Source: a virus (Duplodnaviria > Heunggongvirae > Uroviricota > Caudoviricetes). From it: DNA of 4,406 nucleotides. Under the pieces are notes generated by a model. That model did no database searches, was not told the DNA's origin, and was given only the letters and a program-made list of their open reading frames with translations. Numbering within the stretch: the stretch's first letter is position 1; each line of letters starts with the position of its first letter. Location: the IMG/VR virus record IMGVR_UViG_2703718784_000009, positions 1 through 4,406 of that record; one strand, given 5' to 3'. Shown piece by piece: positions 762 through 4,406 of this stretch. The translations under genes and the position numbers were made by a program.

Positions 762-800
762 AAAACCCCGCTTGCAGCCAACAAACGGGGTTTTTACTTT
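762..800. terminator. intrinsic (Rho-independent) terminator hairpin, bidirectional, stronger in the plus direction
   Basis: AAAACCCCG (762..770) pairs with CGGGGTTTT (786..794); loop has further internal pairing; followed on the plus strand by TTTTTACTTTTATT. On the minus strand the same hairpin is followed by UUUUGUGUUU. Lies between the endolysin stop (885) and the small ORF start (728). Confidence 0.6.
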
Positions 801-884: not shown

Positions 885-1418
885 TTATCTGTCAATTCCC
901 CAGCACGCCAGCGCACTCTCCTGGTCGCGACGGGATACCTGACCGTAACAGTTGTTTGAGCGAATACGGCAGTCTCTGCCACCGTCCTTAATCCACCAGC
1001 GAATCGCTTCGCATGCTCCCCTGCGATCACCTGCATTAATTCGTCTGTAAAACGTCGACGGGAAACACTTACCGGGACCAATGTTGTACGGACAGAATGA
1101 CGCGATCCCCGCTTTCTGGGGTTCGGTCAGCGGCACTCTGATGTTTTTCTCCACCCACGCCAGCGCCTTATCACGCTCAATGGCGTTAACCTGGTCGCAT
1201 TTTTCCTTCGACAACTTCATGCCCGGAACGACAGGTTTGCCATCCACCATGATGGCACCACGGCAGATGGTCCAGATACCTGCACCATCACGGTATGCCG
1301 TGGTGTGGTTACCTTCCTTTTCATCCAGAAACTGGTCGAGAATTTCAGGCGCAGAAGCCCCTGCGGCAATCAGCGCCAGAACGGCAGCCGACAGGCCGTA
1401 TTTGATTTTTGCGTTCAT
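885..1418 (-). CDS. R: endolysin, T4-lysozyme-like muramidase (GH24) with N-terminal signal-arrest-release (SAR) domain
   Basis: 177-aa ORF, ATG 1418..1416, stop TAA 887..885. N-terminal weakly hydrophobic Gly/Ala-rich segment (YGLSAAVLALIAAGASA) typical of SAR endolysins. Catalytic E-x8-D-x5-T spacing present (E..GNHTTAYR D GAGIW T), as in T4 lysozyme and phage 21 R. No strong SD upstream of the ATG. Confidence 0.92.
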   Translation of the reverse strand: MNAKIKYGLSAAVLALIAAGASAPEILDQFLDEKEGNHTTAYRDGAGIWTICRGAIMVDGKPVVPGMKLSKEKCDQVNAIERDKALAWVEKNIRVPLTEPQKAGIASFCPYNIGPGKCFPSTFYRRINAGDRRGACEAIRWWIKDGGRDCRIRSNNCYGQVSRRDQESALACWGIDR

Positions 1419-1529
1419 GGATATTTATCAGGATTTATCGGTTCCGAATCCCTGGATATGTTAAGCCTTCACCCCGCCAGTGGTGGGCACTGGCCAGGGT
1501 ATGTCAATCTGATAAACACAGAGGTGACT

Positions 1530-1790
1530 ATGGATTATCCAAATCTACCAAAACAAACTTTTGCTGATTTAATCGCACTCAGGCAAGCAGTCGTAGCTCT
1601 AATCAACGTGTTGCCGGATGAGGAAAAGGAATTAGTTAAAGCAATTCTTAACAGAACTGCCGCCGATTTTTCATCATTCCCACTGACAGATGACCTTGCG
1701 GACCTTCCTGAATTAATTGCAGCGTCCGCCATTAAGCTTACTGAAGAGATTTACTCTCCTCAAAAGCCTTCACAAAATTCCTGCGAGTAA
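1530..1790 (+). CDS. hypothetical 86-aa acidic protein, convergent to the late operon (MDYPNLPKQTFADLIALRQAVVALINVLPDEEKELVKAILNRTAADFSSFPLTDDLADLPELIAASAIKLTEEIYSPQKPSQNSCE)
   Basis: ATG 1530..1532 preceded by GAGGTG (1521..1526); stop TAA 1788..1790; a strong intrinsic terminator follows about 20 nt downstream (1809..1845). Helix-like amphipathic composition; AT-rich codons (about 42% GC by hand count). The longer track ORF 1305..1790 starts at a GTG with no SD. The 3' end overlaps gene 1738..2373 by 53 nt on the opposite strand. Confidence 0.55.
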   Translation: MDYPNLPKQTFADLIALRQAVVALINVLPDEEKELVKAILNRTAADFSSFPLTDDLADLPELIAASAIKLTEEIYSPQKPSQNSCE

Positions 1791-2373
1791 CTTCAATGCA
1801 ATAATCGTAAAACGCCGCGAACTGCTCATCGCGGCGTTTTTCTTCAGGCCGCTGAAGATGCTCTTTCAACCGTGAAGCGCAGCTTAGATGCGCCGCGCGA
1901 TCAAGAATAGTTTCTTTCATTTCATCTGCTGCAAGCACCTCATTTTTTGTTGGGGTGCTTTTTTTCAATTCAGCGATATAGCACTCCAGTTTTTCAATGC
2001 GTGATTCAATATCATCGTTTTCTGACCGCAATGCCGTCGGTGGCGTCTTCAGAGAACCAGTAATTATTCCCGGTAGTTTTCCTCTGTAGGTTATCAACAC
2101 ATCCTGCGCCTCTAAAATTATGGGGCGCTTTTCCGGCGACTGCTCATCCCCTTCACATAAAGCGGCAGCAATATCCATGAAAAACTGCTTCGCCTGTTTT
2201 TTCGCCTCAGCTTCGTAAAATTCCAGCGTGGCACCTTCAGTACGGTCAAGACTAATCGCCACATTTGGCAACAACAGTGACGGATACCCACCAATTTCCA
2301 GTGCCACAGTAACAGTAATCTTATCCGGGTAATTATTTATCCCTTTAACAACCAGTTCGTATTTTTTCTTCAT
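1738..2373 (-). CDS. hypothetical 211-aa soluble protein inserted between holin and endolysin; function unknown
   Basis: ATG 2373..2371 lies 4 nt after the holin stop (TAA 2380..2378) with GGGGAGAG SD inside the holin 3' end, i.e. tight translational coupling. Stop TAA 1740..1738. No TM segment; the C-terminal half looks helical/coiled-coil (DDIESRIEKLECYIAELKK...). I do not recognise the family. Confidence 0.8.
   Translation of the reverse strand: MKKKYELVVKGINNYPDKITVTVALEIGGYPSLLLPNVAISLDRTEGATLEFYEAEAKKQAKQFFMDIAAALCEGDEQSPEKRPIILEAQDVLITYRGKLPGIITGSLKTPPTALRSENDDIESRIEKLECYIAELKKSTPTKNEVLAADEMKETILDRAAHLSCASRLKEHLQRPEEKRRDEQFAAFYDYCIEVTRRNFVKAFEESKSLQ
1809..1845 (+). terminator. intrinsic terminator for the plus-strand ORF 1530..1790, embedded in the coding sequence of the minus-strand gene 1738..2373
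   Basis: AAAACGCCGCGA (1809..1820) pairs perfectly with TCGCGGCGTTTT (1829..1840), 8-nt loop, then TTTTTCTTC. Weaker in the minus direction (followed there by UUUUACG). Confidence 0.6.
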
Positions 2374-2377
2374 CGCT

Positions 2378-2593
2378 TTACTCTCCCCGCGCCGCCTTAC
2401 GCCGGTCCTCTCTGATTTTGAAATACAGGTTAGTCAGATATGTCAGCAGCCCAAACAGCAGACTCCCCAGCACGCCTATTGCCGCCCACTGAGACGGGGA
2501 AACCCTGTCCAGCAACTGCAGGAACCAGTAGCCCGTTCCCACCGCTGACGTGGTGTATGACACACCTGTTGTGATTTTTTCCATCTGGTACAT
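2378..2593 (-). CDS. S: class II holin (pinholin), phage 21 S-like, with dual-start motif
   Basis: 71-aa [74 protein letters not shown]: two TM segments plus charged C-terminal tail; closely resembles S21 / E. coli EssD as I recall them. Two in-frame ATGs (2593 and 2584). GGGAG SD upstream. Confidence 0.9.
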
Positions 2594-2668
2594 ACCCCGT
2601 CTCCCGTACTCGGAAGCTCACAACAACAAAAGGGCCACCAGCTCTTTACTGATGACCCTGACTCACCG

Positions 2669-2959
2669 TTACAGCATTGTGCCCGATTCTGGCTGTGTGT
2701 CTGTCATATCCGTCACCGGTGGCTCCGGCTGAATATCACCATTTTCCGTGGTGACATCTTCCGCCTGTGGTTCCGGAAGCAGTTCCGGGGATGGTTCCGG
2801 CTGTGCACCAAGCAATTCATCCAGAATGGCATCCACTTCTGCATCAAGACGCGCCTCAAGGTTCTGCCGAAGTTGCTGTTTCAGTGCGCTCCGGACTTCT
2901 TCAGAGCGCAGGACTTCCTTCACTGCCTCAGCAGTGACCAGCGATTTTATTTCTGACAT
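2669..2959 (-). CDS. hypothetical 96-aa acidic protein with helical N-terminal half and Pro/Glu-rich C-terminal tail
   Basis: First ATG at 2959..2957 (the track ORF extends to a GTG at 3133 but overlaps the neighbouring ORF). Stop TAA 2671..2669. Protein-like sequence MSEIKSLVTAEAVKEVLRSEEVRSALKQQLRQNLEARLDAEVDAILDELLGAQPEPSPELLPEPQ..., whereas the opposite-strand ORF 2748..2975 is serine-rich low complexity. Weak SD (GAGAAAA). Confidence 0.55.
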   Translation of the reverse strand: MSEIKSLVTAEAVKEVLRSEEVRSALKQQLRQNLEARLDAEVDAILDELLGAQPEPSPELLPEPQAEDVTTENGDIQPEPPVTDMTDTQPESGTML

Positions 2960-2996: not shown

Positions 2997-3179
2997 CTAC
3001 GGAATGAGCGGATCTTCGGGTTTGCTTCCGGCTGACTGACTGGCGCTGATTTTCTCTGCGGCCCTTTTATCAATCTGCCTGCGCCAGAAATCGCGCACTG
3101 CCCTGTACCCACCCGAAAGAAGATACATAACACAGACTGCCGTACAGAAGTACAGCATCACCTGATGAACAAATGTCAT
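2997..3179 (-). CDS. hypothetical 60-aa small membrane protein, N-terminal TM helix and basic tail (MTFVHQVMLYFCTAVCVMYLLSGGYRAVRDFWRRQIDKRAAEKISASQSAGSKPEDPLIP)
   Basis: ATG 3179..3177, stop TAG 2999..2997. No SD of its own, but its ATG overlaps the TGA stop of an upstream 14-codon leader ORF (ATGA overlap), which follows another 14-codon ORF that has a perfect GGAGGT SD (see findings). N-terminal hydrophobic helix with positive residues after it. Confidence 0.45.
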   Translation of the reverse strand: MTFVHQVMLYFCTAVCVMYLLSGGYRAVRDFWRRQIDKRAAEKISASQSAGSKPEDPLIP

Positions 3180-3318: not shown

Positions 3319-4406
3319 TTATGATGATGCCCGGCTTTCGTTAACTTTGACTGTGACCGTATCAAGCAGTACCGGATACGTCGCTTTTGCCCCCGTGATA
3401 TCTGTCAGCGTCAGCGTATCTGCTGTAAAGTCATCATTTGTCCACATCACAAGGTCAAACGCCGTCTGCTCTGTACCATCAATCACCGGAACGACTCTTT
3501 CGCTGTTATTTCCCGCAAAGCGGAAAACAACCGTATGCCAGTTATGGTCAAACGCACCAAATGTACCCAGTTGTGCATTCGACGTGCCCTTGTGGTGCAT
3601 AAGATTCAGATTTGATGCATCCGTCTGAAGGAAGAATGATGCCAGCATACTGTTTGCTGCCGCGCCTGACGCCCACTGCGACACCGGCCAGTAGAGACCA
3701 AAGACAAACTGTCCGTTCACCAGTTCGCTTCCATCCGGAATTTTGAACCGTACGGCAATTTCACCCCCCTTGCTGAGAAGATTTTTTGCCTCCTCCACTG
3801 CAACAGTACGGAACATTTTCCAGGACATCAGTTTACCGGGCTGTTTTTCCAGTCGCAGCGCTTTCCGTCCACCGTCATCAGTCACAGTGCCTTTGCCGCC
3901 GGAAGCACCCCACTGCTGCTCTGTCAATGCACCATTTCCACTGTTCGCATCATATTCAGCCACCGTCCTGGTACTGCTCACGGCCTCATCATGATCAGTA
4001 CCAGCAACACCGCCATCCTGCGGTTTCTCAACATCCGGTGTCCCCGGACTGACAGGAGTTGTACCACCCGACTGCGGTGCGCTCTGCCCGGTAAGGAACG
4101 ATAATGTCCGCCCGGCGTACTGCAAAATGGCACCTGCCAGGCGGTCTGAAACAAGGCCTCTTCGCGCCCATGAACTGAAGTGCGTTTTACGATCGGCTGA
4201 CGTCCAGTTACTGGCAGTGCGTGACGCAGCGCCATAGTATCCCGCCGGGATAATGTCCCGATCTTCTGACGGCTCGTTTGTCGGCACATTCACACCATGC
4301 TCATCCGTCATCAACGGCACAAAGTGAATATTCTGCGCAGCTTTGCCTTTATACCCACCGTAAACCGCCTCATACGGCGCTGCATACCTTTCCTTCCAGT
4401 AGTACG
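3319..4406 (-). CDS. large accessory ORF of unknown function, C-terminal 362 codons only (5' end beyond the right window edge)
   Basis: Stop TAA 3321..3319; frame stays open to position 4406 (the track start at 4320 is a GTG, and the upstream codons ...YYWKERYAAPYEAVYGGYKGKAAQNIHFVPL are stop-free and protein-like). Contains a Gly/Ser/Thr/Pro-rich linker followed by a beta-rich C-terminal domain (FGLYWPVSQW...WHTVVFRFAGNNSERVVPVIDG...), possibly jelly-roll/lectin-like. It sits upstream of the holin in the operon; the antiterminator Q is not in the window. Confidence 0.85.
   Translation of the reverse strand, partial: YYWKERYAAPYEAVYGGYKGKAAQNIHFVPLMTDEHGVNVPTNEPSEDRDIIPAGYYGAASRTASNWTSADRKTHFSSWARRGLVSDRLAGAILQYAGRTLSFLTGQSAPQSGGTTPVSPGTPDVEKPQDGGVAGTDHDEAVSSTRTVAEYDANSGNGALTEQQWGASGGKGTVTDDGGRKALRLEKQPGKLMSWKMFRTVAVEEAKNLLSKGGEIAVRFKIPDGSELVNGQFVFGLYWPVSQWASGAAANSMLASFFLQTDASNLNLMHHKGTSNAQLGTFGAFDHNWHTVVFRFAGNNSERVVPVIDGTEQTAFDLVMWTNDDFTADTLTLTDITGAKATYPVLLDTVTVKVNESRASS

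What the first reader, a model, noticed from the sequence alone, without database searches (positions are those of the whole stretch)
1738..2380. Unidentified 211-aa gene occupies the endolysin slot, translationally coupled to the pinholin
In lambda and phage 21 the holin stop abuts the endolysin start. Here the holin TAA (2380..2378) is followed 4 nt later by the ATG of a 211-aa soluble ORF whose SD (GGGGAGAG) lies inside the holin 3' end, so it is co-expressed stoichiometrically with the holin at lysis. The endolysin is displaced about 1 kb downstream and has no obvious SD. A cytoplasmic protein made at holin levels at this point could be a lysis-timing regulator, an abortive-infection or anti-defence effector, or a superinfection factor. 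E. coli K-12 Qin carries a small ORF (ydfR) in the same slot, so the site is a known variable position, but this 211-aa sequence is not one I recognise.
Basis: partly seen in the sequence, partly recalled or inferred. Interest (0 to 1): 0.8.

Follow-up and report, generated by a model that had tools for sequence, protein, structure and literature searches.

The report
YdfR-family gene between holin and endolysin
The "unidentified" 211-residue gene is an ordinary, already annotated member of the YdfR (DUF1327) family, which sits between the holin and the endolysin in prophages of over half of complete E. coli genomes; here it is a shortened, patchwork version, and the family's function is still unproven.

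Summary
A 211-aa ORF (1738-2373, minus strand) starts 4 nt after the pinholin stop, and a GGGGAGAG Shine-Dalgarno sequence lies in the holin's 3' end. The SAR endolysin starts 959 nt after the holin stop and has no Shine-Dalgarno sequence.

The gene is not unidentified. Residues 1-112 match Pfam DUF1327 (E 4.6e-43), the family of K-12 YdfR. The exact protein is in NCBI as "YdfR family protein". DNA of the N-terminal domain occurs in 3156 of 5426 complete E. coli genomes.

Only the first ~76 residues (a beta-beta-beta-alpha domain) are conserved across the family. The rest is a mosaic of recombination modules.

About three quarters of phage records with this holin type show no YdfR match, so YdfR is probably not needed for lysis.

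The only functional lead is a 2026 paper reporting that K-12 YdfR residues 1-72 bind the catalytic half of RNase E and that the protein co-purifies with RNA. Fold and defence-system searches found nothing.

Verdict: a known family in an ordinary setting, of low interest.

The parts
2378..2593 (-). S21-type (class II) pinholin gene. Its last codons contain the Shine-Dalgarno sequence of the next gene.
   Evidence: PF04971 E 9e-33; phrog holin.
2381..2388 (-). GGGGAGAG Shine-Dalgarno-like sequence inside the holin's 3' end. It is followed by TAA (2380-2378), the spacer agcg (2377-2374) and ATG (2373-2371).
   Evidence: Read directly. The same junction precedes the endolysin in the ydfR-less Stx2a_F403 cassette. 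The 4-nt gap holds in 76 of 79 loci.
1738..2373 (-). 211-aa YdfR-family (DUF1327) ORF, the subject of the finding.
   Evidence: The exact protein is in NCBI as 'YdfR family protein'.
2146..2373 (-). Residues 1-76: the conserved DUF1327 core. Predicted strands at 5-14, 18-27 and 37-43, and a helix at 50-73. This is the only part shared by the whole family. It corresponds to K-12 YdfR residues 1-72, reported to bind the N-terminal half of RNase E.
   Evidence: Alignment A3; AF2 model of residues 1-85, pLDDT 83.8, pTM 0.68; BLASTP against K-12 YdfR; PMC13232886.
2026..2145 (-). Residues 77-116: a low-confidence linker module (RPIILEAQDVLITYRGKLPG...). Some relatives have a different module here.
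   Evidence: pLDDT 24-44; alignment A1.
1960..2025 (-). Residues 117-138: a conserved helix with a heptad pattern (I122, I126, L129, I133, L136), probably a short coiled coil.
   Evidence: Nearly invariant columns; helix 122-138; heptad positions. The recombination breakpoint against the 296-aa form falls at 1961.
1849..1959 (-). Residues 139-175: an optional helical insert module, absent from the 183-aa and 296-aa forms.
   Evidence: Alignment A1; breakpoints at 1961/1959 and 1846.
1798..1848 (-). Residues 176-192 (PEEKRRDEQFAAFYDYC): the last module shared with the long (329-aa) forms.
   Evidence: Homology to L006 ends at 1798; pN/pS 0.15.
1741..1797 (-). Residues 193-211 (IEVTRRNFVKAFEESKSLQ): a tail encoded by the inserted cassette, read antisense to the 3' end of the 86-aa gene.
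   Evidence: The breakpoint is at 1797/1798. The tail occurs in 39 of 39 loci with the cassette and in none without it. In the overlap, pN/pS is 7.2 in this frame and 0.5 in the opposite gene's frame, from few events.
1442..1797 (.). A 356-bp cassette that replaces the segment encoding the C-terminal ~135 residues of the long YdfR form.
   Evidence: blastn against L006: homology runs 2400-1798, breaks, and resumes at 1441. The cassette is present in 436 of 5426 E. coli genomes (294 with at least 80% of its length), including REL606.
1530..1790 (+). Convergent 86-aa acidic (pI 4.3) gene of unknown function. A GAGGTG Shine-Dalgarno sequence lies 5 nt before its ATG.
   Evidence: phrog_2572 E 3.6e-50. 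PGAP annotates it as a hypothetical protein. The exact protein is on at least 990 contigs. Only 18 clusters, all 81% identical or more, were found in the protein collection.
1809..1840 (+). Perfect 12-bp hairpin followed by a T-tract, 19 nt after the stop of the 86-aa gene. It is terminator-like for + strand transcription and lies inside ydfR codons 178-188.
   Evidence: Inverted repeat I1; RNA fold z -5.17.
885..1418 (-). R21-type SAR endolysin with the leader ATAAATATCCATG, which has no Shine-Dalgarno sequence.
   Evidence: PF00959 E 3.3e-24. The leader was compared across loci and K-12. No upstream mini-ORF with a start codon ends at the ATGA.

Best explanation
The ORF is a YdfR-family (DUF1327) late gene of a lambdoid E. 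coli prophage.

Shown:
- It sits directly after the S21-type pinholin and uses the holin-embedded Shine-Dalgarno sequence and 4-nt spacer. In the ydfR-less cassette examined (Stx2a_F403), that same junction drives the endolysin.
- Only its first ~76 residues (a beta-beta-beta-alpha domain) are conserved across the family.
- The remainder is a chain of exchangeable modules: a linker, a short heptad helix, an optional helical insert and a conserved 17-residue helix.
- The 211-aa form is a truncated derivative of a 329-aa form. A 356-bp cassette carrying a convergent 86-aa gene replaced the C-terminal domain and supplies the last 19 codons.
- Most phage records with this holin type show no YdfR match.

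Inferred:
- It is an accessory protein, not part of the lysis machinery.
- It is made from the Q-dependent late transcript at about the same time as the holin.
- It acts in the cytoplasm through the N-terminal domain. By homology to K-12 YdfR, that domain binds the catalytic N-terminal half of RNase E and/or RNA, and the heptad helix probably promotes oligomerisation. The effect would be on RNA processing or stability late in infection, not on membrane or wall breakdown.

My probabilities: about 0.9 for the identity and architecture, and about 0.3 for the RNase E/RNA mechanism.
For: Identity:
- PF07041 E 4.6e-43, 145.8 bits against a cut-off of 25.
- PGAP and NCBI name it 'YdfR family protein', and the exact sequence is in NCBI.
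- 45% identity to K-12 YdfR over residues 1-74.

Position:
- K-12 has essQ, 4 nt, ydfR, then an ATGA overlap with rrrQ.
- The 4-nt gap holds in 76 of 79 loci.
- The same junction serves the endolysin in Stx2a_F403.

Architecture:
- Alignments A1 and A3.
- Breakpoints at 1961, 1846, 1798 and 1441.
- The cassette and the tail are strictly linked: 39 of 39 loci with the cassette, none without.

Dispensability: 434 phage records have the holin type and 101 match YdfR.

Prevalence: N-domain DNA occurs in 3156 of 5426 E. coli genomes, up to 8 places per genome.

Structure:
- N-domain model pLDDT 83.8.
- The C-terminal half is helical at low confidence.
- No transmembrane segment.

Mechanistic lead: PMC13232886 reports that K-12 YdfR residues 1-72 interact with Rne 1-597 in a two-hybrid assay, that Rne 1-598 co-purifies with Strep-YdfR, and that DNase-resistant nucleic acid co-purifies too.

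Weak hints:
- Mild purifying selection on the N-domain, pN/pS about 0.49.
Against: Against the RNase E mechanism:
- The RNase E interaction was shown only for the 103-aa K-12 protein, which is 45% identical. With the short-linker fusion it was seen with only one Rne construct.
- Overexpressing K-12 ydfR changed few transcripts.
- The authors could not exclude a contaminant as the RNA binder.

Against this form being functional:
- Selection on the C-terminal modules is weak (pN/pS 0.5-0.9), and the tail looks unconstrained.
- PGAP treats the cassette-bearing alleles examined (SW070917, which is 99.8% identical to the window over positions 1400-2700, and REL606) as pseudogenes missing the C-terminus.
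- The tight linkage to S21-type holins leaves a holin-related role open.
Confidence: 0.7

Rival explanations
1. Lysis-timing regulator. The protein is made together with the pinholin and acts on the pinholin or on the SAR endolysin to tune when lysis fires. It could do this, for example, by binding the holin's cytoplasmic C-terminal tail or by lowering endolysin translation.
For: - Every YdfR locus examined lies directly after an S21-type holin, with a conserved 4-nt junction.
- Its presence removes the endolysin from the strong holin-embedded Shine-Dalgarno sequence and leaves it with a leader that has none. This must change the ratio of endolysin to holin.
- PMC13232886 cites a genetic screen that links K-12 ydfR to envelope integrity.
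Against: - There is no transmembrane or amphipathic membrane segment.
- There is no similarity to known antiholins or lysis regulators in Pfam, PHROGs or NCBIfam.
- About three quarters of phage records with this holin type show no YdfR match.
- The linkage to the holin may simply reflect inheritance as one recombination module.
Confidence: 0.15
2. Decaying passenger. The 211-aa form is a non-functional remnant of a longer gene that was truncated by the cassette insertion. It persists only because it lies in an expressed operon of a prophage.
For: - PGAP marks the cassette-bearing alleles examined as pseudogenes missing the C-terminus.
- The last 19 residues are antisense read-through of another gene and appear unconstrained.
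- Many relatives are truncated or frameshifted, at 148, 162, 182 and 194 aa.
- pN/pS is 0.5-0.9 outside the N-domain.
Against: - The N-domain, which is the whole conserved part of the family and the entire interacting part of K-12 YdfR, is intact.
- Naturally short forms of 103 and 116 aa are common.
- All 18 distinct DNA variants of the 183-aa cassette-bearing form keep the full reading frame.
- The start, the Shine-Dalgarno sequence and the 4-nt junction are conserved.
Confidence: 0.2
3. Anti-defence, abortive-infection or superinfection-exclusion effector carried as cargo in a variable slot.
For: - The C-terminal half and the adjacent cassette are highly variable and recombinogenic, as is typical of accessory hot spots.
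- The neighbouring 86-aa acidic orphan gene has the look of a moron, that is, an accessory gene inserted into a prophage.
Against: - PADLOC gave no significant hit; the best was E 0.018 to Cmr5, 13.6 bits.
- The gene is placed for late, Q-dependent expression, not for expression in the lysogen. That suits neither exclusion nor abortive infection.
- The conserved part is the N-domain, not the variable part.
Confidence: 0.07

Closest known systems
E. coli K-12 YdfR (b1555, P76160), Qin cryptic prophage, 103 aa
   Same: - Same Pfam family (DUF1327).
- Same position, 4 nt after an S21-type holin gene (essQ) and upstream of the R21-type lysozyme rrrQ.
- 45% identity over residues 1-74, the region reported to bind RNase E.
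   Different: - K-12 YdfR has only a 30-residue helical tail, and its stop overlaps the rrrQ start (ATGA).
- The window protein has a 135-residue modular helical extension.
- In the window, a 319-nt gap containing a convergent gene separates the ORF from the endolysin.
Long YdfR-family proteins of E. coli prophages (296-333 aa, e.g. P0011, P0120, P0098)
   Same: - The 329-aa form (L006) is about 96% identical in DNA through codon 192.
- The 296-aa form shares the N-terminal part only as far as window position 1961 and lacks the insert module of residues 139-175.
- All share the holin junction.
   Different: - The long forms continue into a further ~100-135-residue C-terminal domain that has no Pfam match.
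- They end 36-42 nt before the endolysin start and have no antisense gene.
- In the window that domain is replaced by the 356-bp cassette.
116-aa YdfR-family proteins of Stx1a/Stx2c-converting phages and phage YYZ-2008
   Same: 93% identity over residues 1-116, in the same slot.
   Different: They stop after the linker module and lack the helical modules.
Phage and host modulators of RNase E (T7 gp0.7, phiKZ Dip, RraA/RraB, RapZ), cited from my own knowledge and from the introduction of PMC13232886
   Same: If the K-12 result carries over, this would be another small protein that binds RNase E. This is a comparison of how it might work, not a claim of family membership.
   Different: - There is no sequence or fold similarity.
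- From my own knowledge, not tested here: Dip and T7 gp0.7 act on the C-terminal scaffold half of RNase E.
- K-12 YdfR was mapped to the catalytic N-terminal half, like RapZ.
- No effect on RNase E activity has been shown.

Membership tests
YdfR / DUF1327 (PF07041) | Match to the Pfam model above its gathering score | tested here: met
   145.8 bits against a cut-off of 25, E 4.6e-43, residues 1-112 on profile positions 1-92 of 93.
YdfR / DUF1327 (PF07041) | Conserved core residues of the N-terminal domain | tested here: met
   G11, N14, F52 and E54 are invariant. Y5, E6, L7, V9, K10, K18, D43, R44, E46, G47, L50, E51, Y53 and others are nearly invariant. All are present in the window protein.
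YdfR / DUF1327 (PF07041) | Genomic position: directly downstream of a class II (S21-type) holin in a lambdoid lysis cassette and upstream of the lysozyme | tested here: met
   K-12 Qin. 76 of 79 related loci have the 4-nt holin junction. The window has the same junction.
YdfR / DUF1327 (PF07041) | Binding of the N-terminal catalytic half of RNase E, reported for K-12 YdfR residues 1-72 | not testable with these tools
   Only homology is available: 45% identity over that region. The source is PMC13232886.
Antiholin or membrane-acting lysis regulator | A transmembrane or membrane-associating segment, or similarity to a known lysis-regulator family | tested here: not met
   Maximum 19-residue hydropathy is 1.18. 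No lysis-category hit in PHROGs, Pfam or NCBIfam.
Known anti-phage defence or abortive-infection proteins (PADLOC) | A significant match to a defence-system protein model | tested here: not met
   The best hit is Cmr5, E 0.018, 13.6 bits.
Double-stranded-RNA-binding domain (dsRBD) | An alpha-beta-beta-beta-alpha fold with a significant structural match | tested here: inconclusive

The most novel reading that the evidence does not exclude
The DUF1327 N-terminal domain is a phage-encoded ligand of the RNase E catalytic half, and possibly an RNA binder. S21-type lambdoid phages would deliver it together with the holin to reshape RNA decay in the last minutes of infection. Its C-terminal end, with the adjacent convergent 86-aa orphan gene, would be a recombination hot spot where prophages swap accessory cargo.
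Probability: 0.2. Interest if true: 0.5.

Novelty: already known. Interest (0 to 1): 0.2.

Why it matters
The direct value is small. The gene is a named family member found in most E. coli strains, so the finding does not reveal a new element.

Three points are still useful.
- They correct the reading that this is an unknown gene in a variable slot. It is ydfR itself, in a rearranged form.
- They show that automatic annotation calls the cassette-bearing alleles pseudogenes, although the conserved domain and the translational junction are intact.
- They show that this gene sits on the endolysin's usual translation start site. Any study of lysis timing in these prophages, including Stx1 and Stx2c phages, should take account of it.

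The family is very common, is expressed next to the holin, and has only one recent functional clue (RNase E binding). It therefore remains a reasonable but modest target for experiments.

Tried and rejected
- Foldseek of the full-length model (pLDDT 55) against PDB gave nothing at E <= 0.001.
- Foldseek against BFVD viral structures gave a best E of 0.03, all to uncharacterised proteins.
- The afdb50 library was unavailable.
- A profile search of PDB sequences gave no hit at E <= 1.
- NCBIfam gave no hit for the 211-aa ORF or the 86-aa gene, and PADLOC gave nothing significant.
- Rfam at E <= 1 gave only two sub-threshold chance hits, one inside the ORF on the opposite strand (ar15, 19.7 bits against a gathering score of 40).
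- The 'DUF1823' label given to the 86-aa gene in phage PhiR5_1 is not supported: E 0.023, 15 bits against a cut-off of 25.
- The sigma-70 promoter scan found nothing upstream of the 86-aa gene, and the counts for the window were not above the shuffled expectation.
- I looked for an upstream mini-ORF that could couple endolysin translation. The frame ending at the ATGA has no start codon.
- My pN/pS estimates are crude. They sum pairs of related sequences and rest on few independent events, so I use them only as weak support.
- The 'terminase small subunit' names inside the protein's 90% cluster are a clustering artefact. Those proteins share no similarity with it.
- An all-library HMMER search found only 61 representatives, so there are no distant relatives to inform function. 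The named hits of the two word-index searches are all Escherichia, Shigella or Salmonella.

Full report
**Observation**

The minus strand of the window carries a lambdoid late and lysis region:
- the C-terminal part of a nanS-p-like esterase (3319-4320);
- DUF1378 (2997-3179);
- DUF826 (2669-2959);
- an S21-type pinholin (2378-2593, PF04971 E 9e-33);
- the 211-aa ORF (1738-2373);
- an R21-type SAR endolysin (885-1418, PF00959);
- two small ORFs, and the start of Rz.

The holin TAA is at 2380-2378, the spacer agcg at 2377-2374 and the ATG at 2373-2371. GGGGAGAG occupies 2388-2381. The ORF product has no hydrophobic segment; the maximum 19-residue hydropathy is 1.18. The endolysin starts 959 nt after the holin stop, behind the leader ATAAATATCCATG, which has no Shine-Dalgarno sequence. 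It omits one feature: a convergent 86-aa gene on the plus strand (1530-1790) that overlaps the ORF's 3' end by 53 nt.

**Identity**

Residues 1-112 match Pfam DUF1327 at E 4.6e-43, 145.8 bits against a cut-off of 25. BLASTP against K-12 YdfR gives 45% identity over residues 1-74. The identical 211-aa sequence is in NCBI as 'YdfR family protein' on 35 contigs. The best E. coli genome hit is 99.8% identical over window positions 1400-2700.

DNA of the N-terminal domain is found in 3156 of 5426 complete E. coli genomes, with up to 8 places per genome. The family is narrow in taxonomy. An exhaustive HMMER search of 1.84 billion representatives gave only 61 hits. The named hits of the two word-index searches are all Escherichia, Shigella or Salmonella.

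**The slot**

In K-12 Qin the order is essQ, 4 nt, ydfR, then an ATGA overlap with rrrQ. In 76 of 79 related loci where it could be measured, the gap from holin stop to ydfR start is exactly 4 nt. In a ydfR-less S21-type cassette (Stx2a_F403) the same ...GGGGAGAG TAA nnnn ATG junction leads directly into the endolysin. YdfR therefore sits on the initiation site that otherwise serves the endolysin, and the phrase 'occupies the endolysin slot' is apt.

In ydfR-bearing cassettes the endolysin has a different leader without a Shine-Dalgarno sequence. The core of that leader, ATAAATATC(C/T)ATG, is shared with K-12 and with most variants. The absence of a Shine-Dalgarno sequence therefore goes with this endolysin allele and is not a result of the 1-kb displacement. 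No start-bearing mini-ORF ends at the endolysin ATG.

Among phage records, 434 carry this holin type and 101 match YdfR. The gene is thus a presence/absence polymorphism and is probably not needed for pinholin and SAR-endolysin lysis.

**Architecture**

Alignments show that only residues 1 to about 76 are shared by the whole family. Lengths range from 103 to 333 aa. In the window protein the modules are:
- 1-76: the conserved core;
- 77-116: a linker;
- 117-138: a nearly invariant heptad helix;
- 139-175: an optional helical insert;
- 176-192: a conserved helix;
- 193-211: a tail.

blastn breakpoints against related loci fall at these module borders: 1961, 1846 and 1798. Against a 329-aa form (L006), the window is about 96% identical from 2400 to 1798, unrelated from 1797 to 1442, and homologous again from 1441. 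The 356-bp replacement carries the convergent 86-aa gene and its upstream region. In the long form the corresponding segment encodes a further ~135-residue C-terminal region with no Pfam match.

The tail ...VTRRNFVK[AI]FEE[SG]KSLQ occurs in all 39 loci with the cassette and in none without it. The 211-aa protein is therefore a truncated long YdfR with 19 cassette-encoded residues added. This matches PGAP's label 'missing C-terminus' on such alleles. The cassette occurs in 436 E. coli genomes, including REL606.

**Selection and coding**

Crude pN/pS values are 0.49 for the N-domain, 0.73 for the linker and 0.54 for residues 117-192. Within residues 117-192, the value is 0.15 for residues 176-192. 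The value for the tail is above 1. In the overlap, the 86-aa gene's frame looks more constrained than the ydfR tail frame, at 0.5 against 7.2. These numbers rest on few, non-independent changes. All 18 distinct DNA variants of the 183-aa cassette-bearing form keep the full frame. Other loci show truncated forms of 148-194 aa.

**Structure**

The full-length AF2 model is poor (pLDDT 55). It shows a beta-beta-beta-alpha N-domain, a disordered stretch at 72-120 and three low-confidence helices. The N-domain (residues 1-85) modelled alone, with a 34-sequence alignment, reaches pLDDT 83.8 and pTM 0.68.

No structural search gave a convincing homologue:
- Foldseek against PDB and BFVD found nothing at E <= 0.001;
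- a profile search of PDB sequences found nothing.

**Function**

Pfam, PHROGs, NCBIfam and PADLOC give no functional label. The one experimental lead is PMC13232886 (RNA Biol 2026), read:
- K-12 YdfR residues 1-72 were recovered in a two-hybrid screen;
- the full-length protein interacts with Rne 1-597;
- Rne 1-598 co-purifies with Strep-YdfR, and DNase-resistant nucleic acid co-purifies too;
- overexpression changed few transcripts.

The interacting region is exactly the conserved core found here. My best explanation is therefore a cytoplasmic accessory protein made late from the Q-dependent transcript. Its N-domain would bind RNase E and/or RNA, and its heptad helix probably promotes oligomerisation. 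I put about 0.3 on this mechanism and about 0.9 on the identity and architecture.

The rivals are a lysis-timing role (0.15), a decaying remnant (0.2) and an anti-defence or exclusion effector (0.07).

**Verdict**

The sequence observation is confirmed. The gene is an already known, very common family member in a rearranged form. Interest is low.

Noticed in passing
window 1530-1790 (+): A convergent 86-aa acidic (pI 4.3) orphan gene lies between ydfR and the endolysin, with a strong Shine-Dalgarno sequence (GAGGTG, 5 nt from the ATG). It matches phrog_2572. It is restricted to E. coli prophages, with only 18 clusters, all 81% identical or more. Its function and promoter are unknown. The 'DUF1823' label given to it in phage PhiR5_1 is sub-threshold.
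   Followed up: partly
window 1809-1840 (+): A perfect 12-bp GC-rich hairpin flanked by an A-tract and a T-tract lies 19 nt after the stop of the 86-aa gene (RNA fold z -5.2). It looks like an intrinsic terminator for antisense transcription, and it sits inside ydfR codons 178-188.
   Followed up: partly
window 1419-1431 (-), and L003, L085: The R21-type endolysin here and K-12 rrrQ share an A/T-rich leader, ATAAATATC(C/T)ATG, with no Shine-Dalgarno sequence. In ydfR-less cassettes the endolysin instead uses the holin-embedded GGGGAGAG. How the endolysin is translated in ydfR-bearing cassettes without an overlap is unexplained.
   Followed up: partly
window 762-794 (-) and 2631-2659 (-): There are two strong terminator-like hairpins on the late-gene strand. 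One lies between the endolysin and the two small membrane ORFs (546-761, 402-533) that precede Rz. The other lies between DUF826 and the holin. Presumably Q-modified polymerase reads through both.
   Followed up: no
window 2582-2593 (-): The holin begins MYQMEK..., so it has the two-methionine dual-start arrangement of S21-type holins. Unlike S21 (recalled from memory), it has no basic residue between Met1 and Met4.
   Followed up: no
window 1476-1492: The short palindrome CCAGTG-N5-CACTGG lies upstream of the 86-aa gene, inside the cassette. It could be an operator or could be chance.
   Followed up: no
protein collection, cluster of the 211-aa protein: The 90%-identity cluster that holds the YdfR protein also contains partial proteins named 'terminase small subunit'. 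These share no similarity with it, so this is a clustering artefact.
   Followed up: yes
L001 6633-6974, L084 3010-3345: PGAP annotates the cassette-bearing ydfR alleles as pseudogenes ('missing C-terminus') and stops the feature at about codon 112-114, although an intact ORF of 176-211 codons is present.
   Followed up: yes
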